Virus record (IMG/VR): IMGVR_UViG_3300036806_000149
Span: 1 to 64,000 of that record
Direction: 5' to 3' (one strand)
DNA: 64,000 nucleotides
Origin: a virus
Numbering within the stretch: the stretch's first letter is position 1; each line of letters begins with the position of its first letter. Below the pieces are notes generated by a model. The model had not been told where the DNA came from and made no database searches. It worked only from the letters and a program-made list of their open reading frames with translations. A program made the position numbers and the translations under genes. This document shows, one piece after another, positions 20,026 to 24,075 of the stretch.

Positions 20026-20249
20026 TTTTCCTCGCGCGCCTCATACTGAGCGCGTTCCCACATCTCATCCCAGCACACCATCAGCACCTCGCGGATGATG
20101 CAGGTGTTACACCCGTCAAAAAGAGCGAACGCCGGGGATTCGGCCTCTTCCCCGGCGTCGGATGCGTCCAGCGCCTCCAGACAGGCGTTCAGGTGCTGCT
20201 CCGCCTTGGCCTGGACGTGACGCTCGAACTCGACGTCAGTCGCCGGCAC
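19947..20249 (-). CDS. Hypothetical protein; 3' end overlaps the tRNA-like element in antisense
   Basis: Overlaps the stop of the upstream gene; CxxC (CNTC). Confidence 0.55.
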   Translation of the reverse strand: MPATDVEFERHVQAKAEQHLNACLEALDASDAGEEAESPAFALFDGCNTCIIREVLMVCWDEMWERAQYEAREENSGGKTRTCISSQAERIRNASEGSTT

Positions 20250-20586
20250 CGCCCTTGATGCCCACCGTGCGACCGGTCTGGACCTGAGCGTTGACCGCGC
20301 CCATACCGAGACCGCGTGTGCGTCCCCGGCCGCGAGGCCCGGTGAAATCCGGATTGGTCACCCGGACGCTGCCACTGGCGGCGATCGGGTCGGCCTTGAG
20401 GCGGGGGTGCTGATAGACCCGACCGGTGGTGGTGTCGAAGTGACCCAGCGGAGTGGGTGAGAACGTGCCGAGCGTGCCCGGCGCGGACCGCCCGGTTGAG
20501 GTGAACGACTTGATGCTGCTGGCGGGTCCGGTGACCCGCACGGAGCTTCTACGAGACTTCCTGCTGCGGGTGCGTCTACGTGCCAT
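20236..20586 (-). CDS. Basic protamine-like protein (MARRRTRSRKSRRSS...)
   Basis: Arg/Ser-rich N-terminus; AGAGGA RBS. Confidence 0.7.
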   Translation of the reverse strand: MARRRTRSRKSRRSSVRVTGPASSIKSFTSTGRSAPGTLGTFSPTPLGHFDTTTGRVYQHPRLKADPIAASGSVRVTNPDFTGPRGRGRTRGLGMGAVNAQVQTGRTVGIKGGAGD

Positions 20587-20645
20587 CAGATGATTCCTCT
20601 CTTAGAGGCAGTATCCATATGGCCTATGTGTTGCCGTAAGAGACA

Positions 20646-20945
20646 CTAGGGGTTGAGTATGTCGTTGTAGTTGATATTTCGCTGAGTCGGTCCGGCCGGC
20701 GTCTGCCCCAGCACCCCGAGGAACTGCGATTCGGGACGGGGGCGGAGTCGGGGAACGTTGGGGATGCCGCTGTCGGTGCTCGGCGCACCAGCTCTCACCA
20801 GCTTGACGTCGCGAAAGCCGGGAGCCGTGGGATGCCCGTGATACGCCTCCTCCGTCGCCAGCCAGCCCTGGTAGACCGGATCGGGCGCGTCGGGATGACG
20901 CGGCATCAGCGGGTCGGTAGAGCTGAAGCGAAACGGGTTGGCCAT
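20646..20945 (-). CDS. Pro-rich hypothetical protein
   Basis: ORF in the late minus-strand operon. Confidence 0.6.
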   Translation of the reverse strand: MANPFRFSSTDPLMPRHPDAPDPVYQGWLATEEAYHGHPTAPGFRDVKLVRAGAPSTDSGIPNVPRLRPRPESQFLGVLGQTPAGPTQRNINYNDILNP

Positions 20946-20950
20946 CTAGA

Positions 20951-21463
20951 TCACGTCACGTCGTCGCCCGGGGCCGGAGCCTCAGCGGGGGTCTCTGCTC
21001 CCTCAGCCGGATTAGTGTCCGGAGCAGCACCCGTGTCAGGGGCGGCAGCCGGAGCGGTGTCTGGAGCCCCCGCGCCAGGAGCGACGTCGCCACCGCCAGC
21101 GTCTGGAGCAGCGCCACCGGCGTCAGGTGGAGCCGCCTGGCCGCCGCCCGAGGCACTCTGGGTGGCCTCGACCAGCCCGCTGGTCACCGCCTGGAGGTTG
21201 TTGTGCAGCTCTTCGAGCTGGTCGTCGGTCACCGCACTGGCTCCGGCGTCCTTGAGCTGGGCGACCTGATCAGCCAGCGCCTCAAGCTCTGAGACCGCGC
21301 CTGACTCGGCGGCCTGAAGGTCAGCGATGTCCTGCTTGATCTGCTCTACGTCAGCCATGAGTCGCTCCAGTGTGTAGGTGAGAAACCATCCATATCGCCT
21401 GCGGAACCGCATCCAGCCCTGAACGCCGCTGGGAACCTGCATCACGCTATCGGGTATCTGCAA
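20951..21463 (-). CDS. Acidic coiled-coil protein with Ala/Pro/Asp-rich tail
   Basis: GGAGG RBS 7 nt before TTG; heptad region followed by APD repeats. Confidence 0.7.
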   Translation of the reverse strand: MQIPDSVMQVPSGVQGWMRFRRRYGWFLTYTLERLMADVEQIKQDIADLQAAESGAVSELEALADQVAQLKDAGASAVTDDQLEELHNNLQAVTSGLVEATQSASGGGQAAPPDAGGAAPDAGGGDVAPGAGAPDTAPAAAPDTGAAPDTNPAEGAETPAEAPAPGDDVT

Positions 21464-21475
21464 GCGAGATCCTCC

Positions 21476-21751
21476 CTATGCCGATGTACCGCCTCCGCCC
21501 TCAGCGGGCGCGGCCGGCGTAGTTGCGGGCGCAGCGGTCTCAGCGCCACCACTGGGGCCTGATCCAGTAGCGGAGGAATCGGCGGCTGTCGCCTGACTCT
21601 CAGCAGTTGCTTCGCCGCTGGGAGCCGTTATCACGCTGGGCGGCTTTCCCTCCGGAGCCTGATTGGGAATCATTCCGGGGCGCGGGGCTCCGGGGTACTT
21701 CTTCTGCTCCTGCTGCTCCTCCTGCTGCTCTTGCTTCTGCTCTTCGGCCAT
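21476..21751 (-). CDS. Low-complexity Glu/Gln/Ala-rich protein
   Basis: TGATG coupling to the upstream basic peptide. Confidence 0.7.
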   Translation of the reverse strand: MAEEQKQEQQEEQQEQKKYPGAPRPGMIPNQAPEGKPPSVITAPSGEATAESQATAADSSATGSGPSGGAETAAPATTPAAPAEGGGGTSA

Positions 21752-21906
21752 CACTTCTTCTTTCGAGTCGTGGATCGTCGCTTGGCGGTGCTCTTCGAGC
21801 CCGTCTTCTTCTTCTTGCGCCCCTTCCCAATCTCACCGCTTCGCATGCGCTCGATGTTCTTCTGAAAAGCAGGAGGCAAGGCCGCCTTCTTGCGCTTGCG
21901 GGCCAT
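21751..21906 (-). CDS. 51-aa basic peptide MARKRKKAALPPAFQKN...RKKK
   Basis: Manual translation; 22 K+R; TGATG overlaps at both ends. Confidence 0.8.
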   Translation of the reverse strand: MARKRKKAALPPAFQKNIERMRSGEIGKGRKKKKTGSKSTAKRRSTTRKKK

Positions 21907-22460: not shown

Positions 22461-22613
22461 TCAGCGCTTCTTTCGGCGTCTGGTGCGCTTGGTCCGGCGC
22501 ACGTGCGCGTTGCTGATCCGGGCCGCTCGCTGCTTGGAATGGCCCTTGCGCCGCAGCGCCATATACATCCGAGGGTGCTTGATTCCCGCCTTGCGAAGTT
22601 TCCGAGCCGGCAT
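22461..22613 (-). CDS. 50-aa basic peptide, DUF7218-like core
   Basis: IKHPRMYMALRRKGHSKQRAARISNA resembles the bacterial IK..YEALR..G.SKEKAARIANA motif; 22 K+R; AGGAGG RBS. Confidence 0.8.
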   Translation of the reverse strand: MPARKLRKAGIKHPRMYMALRRKGHSKQRAARISNAHVRRTKRTRRRKKR

Positions 22614-22780
22614 CACTTCCTCCTTTTGGGCCGACGGCGGCGGTGCGCCTTGACCCGAATCTTTCTGCTCCCCCGCCGGCGTGTGTGACGCGAAACGCTC
22701 ACCCCCGCCTCGCGCCGATCACGCGCCGACGCCTTGCCGCTAGCGATCTCCGCTCGATCCCTTGTTGACGCTCGTGCCAT
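22613..22780 (-). CDS. 55-aa basic peptide MARASTRDR...VKAHRRRRPKRRK
   Basis: Manual translation; 23 K+R; GGGAGAG RBS. Confidence 0.8.
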   Translation of the reverse strand: MARASTRDRAEIASGKASARDRREAGVSVSRHTRRRGSRKIRVKAHRRRRPKRRK

Positions 22781-22792
22781 CACTCTCCCGCC

Positions 22793-23188
22793 TCACTTGT
22801 GAACCTTGAAATCACCACAGTGGATCGCGAACGCCTTGACGAGCATCGGCAGCGTGCGCTGGGTCCAGAAAGACACCTCGGCTCGATCGAAGGCGCGCAC
22901 GGCTTCAGACACCTGCGGATCGGCAGCGCGCGCCCGACGCAACGCGATCTCCTTGCGAATGAAGTCCACGAATACGTTCGCCGTGCCCACCACGATGTTG
23001 CAGTCGCGCTGGATCAGCACCGTCGCAGTCTTGATGATCTGATTCTGGCTGTCCTTGATGTCCTGCTGCTGGGCGTAGTTGACCGCCAATCCGGCCACCA
23101 CCACCGTCGCCAGAATGACGTACCCGATCAGCGCCAGCCGGAACCGACGTCGCACCGTCGTCGGCGGCAGATCGTCGATCTCAGGCAT
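22793..23188 (-). CDS. Membrane-anchored protein (possibly spanin-like)
   Basis: N-terminal TM followed by a helical domain. Confidence 0.6.
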   Translation of the reverse strand: MPEIDDLPPTTVRRRFRLALIGYVILATVVVAGLAVNYAQQQDIKDSQNQIIKTATVLIQRDCNIVVGTANVFVDFIRKEIALRRARAADPQVSEAVRAFDRAEVSFWTQRTLPMLVKAFAIHCGDFKVHK

Positions 23189-23501
23189 CGACCGGGTCGG
23201 CCGCCGCGTGCAGCATGGGATTGAAGCCCACCATCGCGCCCCCCAAGGTCAGCGCGGCCGGATGAATGGGCGGAAAGAGCGAGTAGACGACGAGCCCTAC
23301 GCCGACGGCAATCAGCACGTACGCCCGAACCAACCGGAGCGTCTGCTGGTGATGGCGATACCGAGCCTTGTCGTCCTGAGCCTCAGCAGAAATCTCCTTC
23401 TGAGACTTCACAGCGGTGCGCCGCCGAGCCAAAGGCTTCTCCTTCGCGACCATCTGACTCTCTTTAGAATGAAATACGGGGCGATGGTCCGCCACGACCA
23501 T
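23181..23501 (-). CDS. Membrane protein (2 TM)
   Basis: Hydrophobic C-terminal half. Confidence 0.55.
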   Translation of the reverse strand: MVVADHRPVFHSKESQMVAKEKPLARRRTAVKSQKEISAEAQDDKARYRHHQQTLRLVRAYVLIAVGVGLVVYSLFPPIHPAALTLGGAMVGFNPMLHAAADPVDA

Positions 23502-23543
23502 CGTCCCGCAGCTTACGGCAAGGAGGCTCTCAGCGGGCCAAAT

Positions 23544-23702
23544 TCAGCGTGGTACACGCCGGCCGCCCCACGGCCTTCCATACCCAACGAGCCACACGAT
23601 CAGCACTGCTGCCACCAGGATGAGCAGGAGCGGACTCCAAAATACTCCACCGAAGATGGCGGCAATGATGATCAGTAGCAAGATGATTGCTAGGAGATCC
23701 AT
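23544..23702 (-). CDS. 52-aa hydrophobic membrane peptide
   Basis: Manual translation MDLLAIILLLIIIAAIFGGVFWSPLLLIL... Confidence 0.6.
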   Translation of the reverse strand: MDLLAIILLLIIIAAIFGGVFWSPLLLILVAAVLIVWLVGYGRPWGGRRVPR

Positions 23703-23727
23703 TTCCTGTATCTACCCCTTCTAATCC

Positions 23728-24075
23728 TCAGCGACCCTTCTTGCGCTTCCGAGAAGCAGGTTTGAGGACATTCAAGTAGAAGCTCGCCTGCCGTTTCGCC
23801 CGCGTCGAGCCATGCCTCATATCGTGTTGGGCTTGAGCGTGGACCGAGCGCTTCTTGCCGCTCTTGGCCCGCCGGGTCAGCGCTCCTGGACGCTTGATCG
23901 CCGAGGCGATGAACTTGCCCGAACCCTTCTTGCGAGTGCTCGTTCGCTTGCCAGCACTGCTCGTACTGCGCCGACGAGTCGATGACGACTTGCGACCGAT
24001 CGGCGACTTTCGGCTGCGTGCGGCGGCCCGTCCACCCTTGCGTTGCGCCGCTTTGGACGGCTTTCTTCGCGCCAT
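23728..24075 (-). CDS. Histone H1/protamine-like basic protein
   Basis: MARRKPSK...; very K/R/S-rich; AIKRPGAL motif; GGAGGTG RBS. Confidence 0.8.
   Translation of the reverse strand: MARRKPSKAAQRKGGRAAARSRKSPIGRKSSSTRRRSTSSAGKRTSTRKKGSGKFIASAIKRPGALTRRAKSGKKRSVHAQAQHDMRHGSTRAKRQASFYLNVLKPASRKRKKGR

What the first reader, a model, noticed from the sequence alone, without database searches (positions are those of the whole stretch)
20236..24075. Array of tiny protamine/histone-like basic genes at the end of the late operon: candidate phage DNA-condensation system
Seen: six consecutive minus-strand micro-genes of 49-74 aa (22613-22780, 22461-22613, 22279-22440, 22055-22279, 21906-22055, 21751-21906), five of them below the ORF-track cutoff. 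They are chained mostly by TGATG stop/start overlaps. The five short ones carry 30-44% Lys+Arg and few acidic residues. Two larger basic genes (23728-24075, 20236-20586) flank them. Five of the eight start MAR-, yet they are not paralogous. Two acidic/low-complexity genes (21476-21751, 20951-21463) sit in the same chain. All lie downstream of terminase, portal and lysis genes on the same strand. Inference: late-expressed core proteins that neutralise or condense packaged DNA, like protamines or adenovirus pVII, possibly with acidic chaperones. Alternatives are nucleoid/ribosome takeover peptides or a shield against host nucleases. I do not know of a described phage system with this many such genes.
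Basis: partly seen in the sequence, partly recalled or inferred. Interest (0 to 1): 0.85.

Follow-up and report, generated by a model that had tools for sequence, protein, structure and literature searches.

The report
Array of tiny polycationic phage genes
An uncultured soil phage carries a tightly chained run of very small, extremely positively charged genes, a cassette that recurs with 1 to about 15 members in a few related phages and probably binds nucleic acid, but nothing here shows that it condenses packaged DNA.

Summary
On the minus strand, 24075-20236, an 84.8-kb soil phage contig (GC 63%) carries eight basic genes. These are A (115 aa), m1-m6 (49-74 aa, K+R 26-44%, pI about 12) and B (116 aa), plus two acidic low-complexity genes. 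Five junctions are TGATG overlaps, and several Shine-Dalgarno sites lie inside the preceding RRK tail codons.

Codon usage picks the claimed frame for every gene except m1. m2 is a Pfam DUF7218 member. m3, m6, A, p20646 and B have composition-corrected homologues in related phages of 49-66% GC. m1, m4 and m5 are orphans.

The order Holliday-junction resolvase, basic genes, acidic protein, p20646 family, B family recurs in about seven lineages. Basic genes number from 1 to about 15.

Function is inferred. The genes are co-oriented with lysis and resolvase genes, so probably late. They lack amphipathic helices and carry two-helix motifs, so nucleic-acid binding is likely.

Full protamine-like neutralisation looks physically implausible, because it would need about 62 MDa of protein for about 55 MDa of DNA. 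An accessory role like the T4 internal proteins is my best guess (0.38).

No virion, expression or binding data exist.

The parts
24106..24636 (-). Holliday-junction resolvase; the conserved upstream anchor of the module
   Evidence: phrog_2002, E 1e-10. Homologues of 36-74% identity sit next to basic genes in relatives.
23728..24075 (-). A: 115-aa Ser/Thr/Arg/Lys-rich protein, pI 12, net +39, starts MARRK
   Evidence: Claimed frame is best of six. An 80.5% identical homologue lies in the same position in metagenome contig L058. Called as a gene in IMG and Logan. No Pfam, PHROG or NCBIfam hit.
23544..23702 (-). 52-aa single-pass membrane peptide with a basic tail
   Evidence: Translation. 77-80% identical homologue in L058.
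22793..23501 (-). Two membrane proteins (23181-23501, 106 aa; 22793-23188, 131 aa), possibly holin-like
   Evidence: Hydrophobic segments in the translations. p23181 is 46% identical in L058. Function not established.
22613..22780 (-). m1: 55 aa, K+R 42%, net +19; the weakest ORF of the array
   Evidence: For: GGGAGAG 5 nt before the ATG, and a stop that overlaps the m2 start. Against: the codon score is not the best frame, the sequence is not in the public protein collection, and there is no homologue. Its likeness to L052 proteins vanishes with composition adjustment.
22461..22613 (-). m2: 50 aa, K+R 44%; a DUF7218 member
   Evidence: PF23855, 48.7 bits against a cut-off of 27, E 8e-13; phrog_4974, E 4e-13. 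The core is 81% identical to the cluster of mycobacteriophages around Rosebush and Qyrzula gp64.
22279..22440 (-). m3: 53 aa, GTG start, K+R 40%; core member of a clade-restricted two-helix family
   Evidence: Five public clusters are 83-90% identical. Homologues of 50-63% identity occur in phages of 49-66% GC. Only 6 representative clusters match in 1.84 billion proteins. AlphaFold predicts two helices, mean pLDDT 74.
22055..22279 (-). m4: 74 aa, Pro/Gly/Ser/Thr-rich, K+R 26%; orphan
   Evidence: Best frame by codon use. Called as a gene. No homologue outside its own 90% cluster.
21906..22055 (-). m5: 49 aa, Lys/Pro/Ala-rich, K+R 31%; orphan
   Evidence: Best frame, GC3 0.90. Called as a gene. 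No homologue in the loci held.
21751..21906 (-). m6: 51 aa, K+R 43%; conserved small family
   Evidence: About 51-59% identical, composition-adjusted E 6e-8, to a 47-aa ORF in the same slot of L061 and L062. The shared core reads A-LP-AF--NIER-RSGEI.
21476..21751 (-). ac1: 91-aa acidic low-complexity protein (pI 4.3)
   Evidence: Best frame. Acidic Gly/Thr/Asp/Glu-rich proteins of 76-90 aa occupy the same slot before the p20646 homologue in L053, L059/60 and L067. The sequence likeness is not significant after composition adjustment.
20951..21463 (-). ac2: 170-aa acidic protein (pI 4.1) with a coiled-coil-like N-half and an Ala/Pro/Asp tail
   Evidence: GGGAGGA before the TTG start. Best frame. 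Only weak coiled-coil Pfam hits.
20646..20945 (-). p20646: 99-aa Pro/Gly-rich protein with conserved short motifs (GHPTAPGFRD, G-PG-PR, GP-QP---Y)
   Evidence: Homologues of 37-52% identity, always just upstream of the B homologue.
20236..20586 (-). B: 116-aa protein with a lineage-specific MARRRTRSRKSRR head and a conserved core (SVRVTNP ... RTASIGMG)
   Evidence: Homologues of 27-45% identity end the module in six relatives. AlphaFold gives mean pLDDT 52, mostly disordered.
26019..27840 (-). Lysin genes at the probable head of the transcription unit
   Evidence: Endolysin and peptidoglycan-binding PHROG hits for 27199-27840 and 26019-26741. The divergent plus-strand NlpC/P60-CHAP gene at 28041-28538 marks the break.

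Best explanation
A late-expressed, fast-evolving cassette of translationally coupled, largely disordered polycationic mini-proteins that bind nucleic acid non-specifically through charge. A few short helical motifs (DUF7218 in m2, the two-helix m3 family) may add some specificity.

The genes are made together with lysis and DNA-maturation genes (lysins, Holliday-junction resolvase). They are followed by acidic low-complexity proteins and by two conserved disordered proteins (p20646, B).

The most likely role is accessory and acts on the phage's own DNA around packaging and delivery. The proteins would coat or partly neutralise the DNA, and perhaps travel with it as internal proteins that shield it. 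This resembles the diverse internal proteins of T-even phages. It is not an essential bulk condensation system.

Shown: gene reality for most members, conservation of the module, its variable size, and charge and composition.
Inferred: late timing, nucleic-acid binding, any virion location, and any role of the acidic partners.
For: Reality and expression signals:
- The claimed frame is best of six for 7 of the 8 basic genes.
- There are five TGATG overlaps, with AGGAGG or GGAG Shine-Dalgarno sites inside the upstream RRK codons.
- 10 of the 15 ORFs from 24902 to 20236 start Met-Ala.

Conservation:
- m3, m6, A, p20646 and B have composition-adjusted homologues at the same relative position in phages of 49-66% GC.
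- The module order resolvase, basic genes, acidic protein, p20646, B recurs in G001, G002, G003, L059/60, L061/62 and L067.

Nucleic-acid binding:
- pI is about 12, net charge is +15 to +39 per protein, and large hydrophobic residues make up only 8-20%.
- m2 is DUF7218.
- A Rho_N/SAP protein sits in the same slot in L061.
- m3 is predicted as two basic helices.

Accessory character: 1 to about 15 basic genes fill the slot. m1, m4 and m5 are orphans, and DUF7218 is absent from five relatives.

Timing: the genes share strand and unit with lysins and the resolvase, with no convincing terminator or promoter between them.

Precedent: T-even internal proteins are a highly diverse set packed with the DNA, about 1,000 molecules per head (PMC3012670, PMC7697877).
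Against: - There is no expression, virion or binding evidence of any kind.
- The proteins share no capsid-targeting sequence beyond MAR(R/K).
- The head genes are 35-50 kb away.
- DUF7218 homologues in cultured mycobacteriophages lie among small non-structural genes.
- Extreme basic composition alone also fits RNA, ribosome or cell-envelope polyanion binding.
- Three of the six micro-genes have no homologue, so their function, or for m1 its very existence, is not secured.
Confidence: 0.38

Rival explanations
1. One reading: a protamine-like system that condenses and neutralises the bulk of the packaged genome, with the acidic proteins acting as chaperones.
For: Extreme basicity and Ser/Thr/Arg-rich tracts in A. 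Acidic partners are conserved in position. The genes lie close to DNA-maturation and lysis genes.
Against: Full neutralisation needs about 1,000 sets, about 62 MDa of protein for about 55 MDa of DNA (computed). That would more than double the cargo, whereas T4 carries about 18 MDa with 170 kb (PMC7697877). Close relatives manage with one or two such genes. K+R is 26-44% and Arg only 8-33%. That is well below protamines, which I recall as mostly arginine. No homology to any condensing protein.
Confidence: 0.1
2. Intracellular RNA-, ribosome- or nucleoid-binding proteins that are not packaged. They might compact or silence host DNA late in infection, act as arginine-rich RNA-binding regulators, or bind ribosomes.
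For: Composition fits RNA as well as DNA. DUF7218 homologues in mycobacteriophages sit among non-structural small genes. A Rho_N-type domain occurs in the slot in L061. Size and charge resemble small ribosomal proteins.
Against: No hit to any ribosomal, HU, H-NS or histone family in Pfam or NCBIfam. The two proteins searched against PDB sequences, m2 and the m3 family, also gave none. The position behind the lysis genes argues against early host takeover.
Confidence: 0.22
3. Lysis accessories: cationic peptides that attack or bind the outer layers of the host envelope at lysis, like the phiKT disruptin gp28.
For: The sizes of 49-74 aa and the positive charge match the 56-aa cationic gp28 (bioRxiv 10.1101/515445). 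The array directly follows lysins and three membrane proteins. An NlpC/P60 lysin precedes the basic genes in L061.
Against: Gp28 has a predicted amphipathic helix and hydrophobic membrane association. Here the helical hydrophobic moment is no higher than in shuffled sequences for 7 of 8 proteins, and large hydrophobic residues are 8-20%. Six to fifteen different peptides are more than one lysis step should need. No signal peptides are visible.
Confidence: 0.1
4. Part of the array is not functional. m1, and perhaps m4 and m5, are chance or recently born ORFs in a purine-rich, GC-rich spacer.
For: m1 fails the codon test and was not called by the public gene callers. m1 and m4 have no homologue even though phages with 83-90% identical m3 exist. 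m5 has none in the loci held.
Against: m4 and m5 pass the codon test clearly (GC3 0.75 and 0.90). All three are locked into start/stop overlaps with ribosome-binding sites. Near-identical variants keep the frames open. The phage is otherwise tightly packed.
Confidence: 0.15

Closest known systems
Internal proteins IPI, IPII and IPIII of T-even phages and their polymorphic locus (PMC3012670, PMC7697877; Repoila et al. 1994 as cited there)
   Same: A set of small, unrelated, fast-changing proteins that differ between related phages. They are packed with the DNA in about 1,000 copies and serve as accessory protection of the injected DNA rather than as structure.
   Different: The T4 proteins share a capsid-targeting sequence of about 10 residues that is cut by the prohead protease, and IPI* is a compact fold. 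Here only MAR(R/K) is shared. The proteins are far more basic and mostly disordered, they are not near head genes, and virion location is unknown.
Protamine-like core proteins of eukaryotic dsDNA viruses (adenovirus pVII, PMC10548178; baculovirus P6.9, PMC5899202)
   Same: Small, very basic proteins with Ser/Thr/Arg tracts (gene A especially), made late.
   Different: No sequence homology. Arg content is lower. There are many different genes instead of one. These are tailed phages, which package naked DNA with a motor. The charge budget argues against bulk neutralisation.
Pfam DUF7218 / phrog_4974 mini-proteins (for example Mycobacterium phage Tesla gp21 and Qyrzula gp64)
   Same: m2 is a true member (48.7 bits). 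Tesla gp21 is also a 51-aa protein with K+R 41%.
   Different: In cultured phages it is a single gene among non-structural small genes, with no known function. It is not part of an array. The family is absent from the five relatives searched.
Disruptin gp28 of phage phiKT (bioRxiv 10.1101/515445)
   Same: A cationic peptide of about 56 aa encoded with lysis genes.
   Different: Gp28 is an amphipathic, membrane-bound helix. The array proteins show no amphipathic helix and are very hydrophilic.

Membership tests
Pfam DUF7218 (PF23855), tested for m2 | Profile score above the curated gathering cut-off (27 bits) | tested here: met
   48.7 bits, E 8.2e-13, profile positions 5-40 of 47. 47.8 bits in the genome search. 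phrog_4974, E 4e-13.
T4-type internal proteins | A shared N-terminal capsid-targeting sequence of about 10 residues, followed by a prohead-protease site | tested here: not met
   The N-termini share only MAR(R/K) in 5 of 8 genes. No significant pairwise similarity.
T4-type internal proteins | Presence inside the mature head and ejection with the DNA | not testable with these tools
   The phage is uncultured. No proteome exists and no RNA run was listed.
Protamine / adenovirus pVII / baculovirus P6.9-type condensing proteins | Sequence family membership | tested here: not met
   No Pfam, PHROG or NCBIfam hit at E up to 0.5-1 for A, m1 and m3-m6.
Protamine / adenovirus pVII / baculovirus P6.9-type condensing proteins | Arginine-dominated composition sufficient to neutralise the genome | tested here: not met
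   Arg is 8-33% and K+R 26-44%. Neutralisation would need about 1,000 sets, about 62 MDa (computed).
Disruptin (phiKT gp28-like cationic lysis peptide) | Small cationic peptide encoded with lysis genes | tested here: met
   49-74 aa, net +15 to +22, downstream of lysins and membrane proteins.
Disruptin (phiKT gp28-like cationic lysis peptide) | Amphipathic helix that gives hydrophobic membrane association | tested here: not met
   The maximum 18-residue hydrophobic moment is not above shuffles, except for the Pro-rich m5. Large hydrophobic residues are 8-20%.
Bacterial nucleoid proteins and ribosomal proteins (HU/IHF, H-NS, histone fold, small ribosomal proteins) | Profile or sequence match to the family | tested here: not met
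   No hits in Pfam or NCBIfam for the array proteins. No hits in PDB sequences for m2 and the m3 family. No fold match for the m3 model.
HeH / SAP / Rho_N two-helix nucleic-acid-binding motif | Helix, extended loop, helix fold with a profile match | tested here: inconclusive
   Rho_N (33.4 bits) matches only the L061 slot protein. m3 is predicted as two helices at pLDDT 74, without any structural match. That DUF7218 is HeH-like is my reading of its sequence pattern, not a test.

The most novel reading that the evidence does not exclude
A small clade of soil phages has evolved a chromatin-like set of disordered proteins. Several polycations, acidic partners and two conserved Pro/Gly-rich proteins would together coat the phage genome. 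They might be co-packaged and delivered with it, or form a charge-driven condensate around replicating and packaging DNA. The number of polycation genes would expand and contract in an arms race with host nucleases.
Probability: 0.15. Interest if true: 0.85.

Novelty: new variant of a known kind. Interest (0 to 1): 0.55.

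Why it matters
Tailed phages are thought to package essentially naked DNA, with the charge screened by ions and polyamines. 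Protein cargo is known in a few model phages and is usually folded.

This cassette of up to about 15 unrelated polycationic mini-proteins is flanked by acidic and Pro/Gly-rich disordered proteins. If it proved to act on the phage genome, it would be a new way for phages to protect, compact or deliver DNA.

It would also be a clear case of rapid gain and loss of very small genes that annotation pipelines tend to miss.

The conserved members (m3, m6, p20646, B) give concrete targets for synthesis and DNA-binding tests even without a cultured host.

Tried and rejected
Searches that found no relative or no match:
- DNA search of the region against cultured phages: no match.
- tblastn of m3 against cultured phages: none.
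- IMG/VR scans with single proteins: the resolvase and m4 gave nothing.
- IMG/VR scans with the B, m3 and p20646 alignments returned only contigs already known, plus L067.
- Two alignments were too divergent to scan with.
- Protein-database searches for m1 and m4: no relatives.
- Profile search with the m3 family against 1.84 billion representatives: 6 clusters and no link to a known family.
- PDB sequence searches with m2 and the m3 family: nothing.
- NCBIfam: nothing meaningful.
- Rfam over 19500-24500: only the tRNA.

Structure prediction:
- B came out mostly disordered (pLDDT 52), so no fold search was run on it.
- Foldseek with the m3 model: no match.

Likenesses I rejected:
- m1 to the HTR...AH motif proteins of G002, and A to the KNP-TR family. 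Both looked real without composition correction and disappeared with it.
- The L067 62-aa protein looked DUF7218-like by eye but gave no Pfam hit.

Sequencing runs:
- The stretch is held by soil metagenome runs of three studies. No RNA holder is listed.
- The laid contigs were near-identical strains with too few differences for a dN/dS test. Parts of the stretch had no cover in two runs.

Earlier notes and literature:
- A word search of earlier scan findings returned nothing similar.
- The literature holds no paper mentioning DUF7218.

Full report
**Context**

The window is the first 64 kb of an 84,777-bp single-contig virus record. It is classed as linear, with a CheckV completeness of 85%. 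GC is about 63%.

The contig is a tailed phage. Its genes, by region:
- Minus strand, 47-39 kb: DnaB helicase, primase, SSB, a DnaE-type polymerase and a UvsX/RecA-like protein.
- 33.8-29.4 kb: a weak large-terminase hit and a portal.
- 27.8-26.0 kb: lysin domains.
- 24106-24636: a Holliday-junction resolvase.
- 58-77 kb, also minus strand: protease, major capsid protein, major tail protein, a very long tape-measure-like ORF and Dit.
- Plus strand, 8-19.5 kb: tail-fibre genes that converge on the region of interest.

No cultured phage is close. There is no DNA match, and the portal is 21% identical to Gordonia phages Jumbo and GMA3. The DNA occurs in soil metagenome runs of three studies, one of which may be its own source.

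**The observation**

Net charges are as follows.

| Gene | Net charge |
|---|---|
| A | +39 |
| m1 | +19 |
| m2 | +22 |
| m3 | +20 |
| m4 | +18 |
| m5 | +15 |
| m6 | +20 |
| B | +17 |
| ac1 | -7 |
| ac2 | -20 |

The sequence shows five TGATG stop/start overlaps. The ribosome-binding sites for m2 and m4 (AAGGAGG, AGGAG) lie inside the Arg-Arg-Lys codons that end m1 and m3. The basic C-terminal tails therefore do double duty.

Ten of the fifteen ORFs between 24902 and 20236 begin Met-Ala.

A genome-wide scan for short basic ORFs flagged twelve, and six of them lie in this 2.3-kb stretch (m4 fell below the scan's K+R threshold). Of the six elsewhere, the four I checked against the ORF lists overlap longer ORFs, and 52464-52619 looks independently real.

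**Are they genes?**

I trained a codon log-odds score on 16 long genes. On 156-nt pieces of those genes it ranks the true frame first in 625 of 640 cases.

It ranks the claimed frame first for A, m2, m3, m4, m5, m6, ac1, ac2, p20646 and B. It does not for m1, where all frames are negative. Lys codon choice (AAG 87%) and Arg codon choice match the long genes.

Public gene callers called m2-m6, A, B and p20646 on the IMG and Logan contigs, but not m1. Near-identical variants differ by conservative changes.

**Homology**

- m2 is a member of Pfam DUF7218 (48.7 bits, cut-off 27) and of phrog_4974. Its core is 81% identical to a small ORF of the mycobacteriophages around Rosebush and Qyrzula. Tesla gp21 is a 51-aa DUF7218 protein with 41% K+R.
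- m3 defines a small family. Five public clusters are 83-90% identical. More distant members (50-63%) occur in phages of 49-66% GC. The invariant core reads H..(K)S.AG.RKAA. Only six representative clusters match in 1.84 billion proteins. AlphaFold predicts two helices at pLDDT 74, with no PDB match.
- m6 has a homologue in L061 and L062 with a conserved non-basic core.
- A is 80.5% identical to a gene at the same place in L058.
- p20646 and B are conserved in six relatives. B is predicted to be mostly disordered.
- m1, m4 and m5 have no homologue.

Two likenesses that I first took for real did not survive composition-adjusted statistics. These were m1 to G002 proteins and A to the KNP-TR family.

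**The module in relatives**

Around the resolvase gene the same order recurs: resolvase, one or more small basic genes, an acidic low-complexity protein, a p20646 homologue, then a B homologue.

| Relative | GC | Basic genes in the slot |
|---|---|---|
| G001 | 51% | one (m3 family) |
| L061/62 | 65-66% | m3 and m6, plus a Rho_N/SAP protein |
| L059/60 | 66% | a 69-aa protein with 48% K+R, plus an m3-like gene |
| L067 | 65% | m3 plus a 62-aa protein with 44% K+R |
| G003 | 49% | at least two at the slot; its m3 gene lies elsewhere, after a lysin |
| G002 | 55% | fifteen chained basic ORFs of 52-152 aa over 4.1 kb, 13 of 17 module genes starting Met-Ala |

The 69-aa protein of L059 is 78% identical to its G003 counterpart despite a 17-point difference in GC.

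DUF7218 is absent from the five relatives searched. The cassette is therefore real and positionally conserved, while its content turns over quickly.

**What it most likely does**

- The array is co-oriented with lysins and the resolvase, with nothing convincing as promoter or terminator in between.
- A plus-strand NlpC/P60-CHAP gene at 28041-28538 separates it from portal and terminase. The unit is therefore best described as lysis, then resolvase, then basic cassette. Late expression is an inference from that.
- The proteins are too hydrophilic, and not amphipathic enough, for a membrane-active role like the phiKT disruptin (bioRxiv 10.1101/515445).
- Their charge, low complexity, the DUF7218 and Rho_N motifs and the helical m3 core point to nucleic-acid binding.

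A simple budget argues against bulk neutralisation.
- One set of eight basic proteins carries +170 in 563 residues (about 62 kDa).
- The 169,554 phosphates of the contig would need about 1,000 sets.
- That is about 62 MDa of protein for about 55 MDa of DNA.
- T4 carries about 18 MDa of internal protein with 170 kb (PMC7697877).

Relatives with one or two such genes also argue against an essential physical role.

The closest working analogy is the T-even internal proteins. [quoted passage not shown] The analogy is functional only. No targeting sequence is shared here and virion location is unknown.

I put 0.38 on an accessory DNA-associated role around packaging and delivery. The rivals get:
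- 0.22: non-packaged RNA, ribosome or nucleoid binding.
- 0.10: the strong protamine model.
- 0.10: a lysis role.
- 0.15: that part of the array, m1 above all, is not functional.

**Novelty**

I found no paper describing such an array in a tailed phage, and none mentioning DUF7218. Earlier notes of this scan hold nothing similar.

Single small basic genes are ordinary in phages. What is unusual here is three things together:
- the chained, expandable set of unrelated polycations;
- the conserved acidic and Pro/Gly-rich partners;
- the restriction to a small clade of soil phages.

Without any functional data I rate it as a new variant of a known kind, of moderate interest.

**Limits**

As a result the closest large relative could not be read. 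A test of whether m3, p20646 and B bind each other could not be run either.

Noticed in passing
window 28041-28538 (+) versus 27837-28415 (-): The real gene here is on the plus strand. It is a 165-aa NlpC/P60-CHAP-like peptidase, 44% identical to a gene that follows the resolvase in L061, with codon score +0.25. The overlapping minus-strand ORF scores -0.24. It breaks the minus-strand gene block just below the candidate structured region at 28548-28750.
   Followed up: partly
window 60428-64000 (-), continuing to 69271 of the contig (L064 1-5271): A single open frame of roughly 2,940 codons lies between the major tail protein and Dit. It is presumably a very long tape-measure protein.
   Followed up: no
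window 19936-20025 (+) and 19947-20249 (-): A 90-nt tRNA-Pro(CGG) call (ARAGORN; Rfam tRNA 45.7 bits) lies antisense to the last ~26 codons of an acidic, Cys-containing 100-aa ORF that passes the codon test (+0.36).
   Followed up: partly
window 52464-52619 (-): A further 51-aa basic ORF lies outside the array. K+R is 35%, GC3 0.85 and codon score +0.66, and it ends KKKRRKKR.
   Followed up: no
window 22657, 22099, 21992: Three copies of the genome-wide near-palindrome GAAAGWTTC fall inside the coding sequences of m1, m4 and m5.
   Followed up: no
window 22616-22630 and 22282-22292 (-): The Shine-Dalgarno sites of m2 and m4 (AAGGAGG, AGGAG) are encoded by the Arg-Arg-Lys codons that end m1 and m3. 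The basic C-terminal tails are therefore under dual constraint.
   Followed up: partly
L052 (G002), reverse strand, oriented positions 4920-9020: Fifteen chained basic ORFs, many His-rich (K+R 20-37%), fill 4.1 kb between the resolvase and the p20646 homologue. Two carry a repeated HTRIT-TGRR-RVRAH-RR motif (77% identity over 26 residues).
   Followed up: partly
Mycobacteriophage records of the Rosebush/Qyrzula group, about 58.4-58.8 kb (for example NC_004684.1): The DUF7218 ORF that matches m2 has no annotated feature under the match in most of these records.
   Followed up: no
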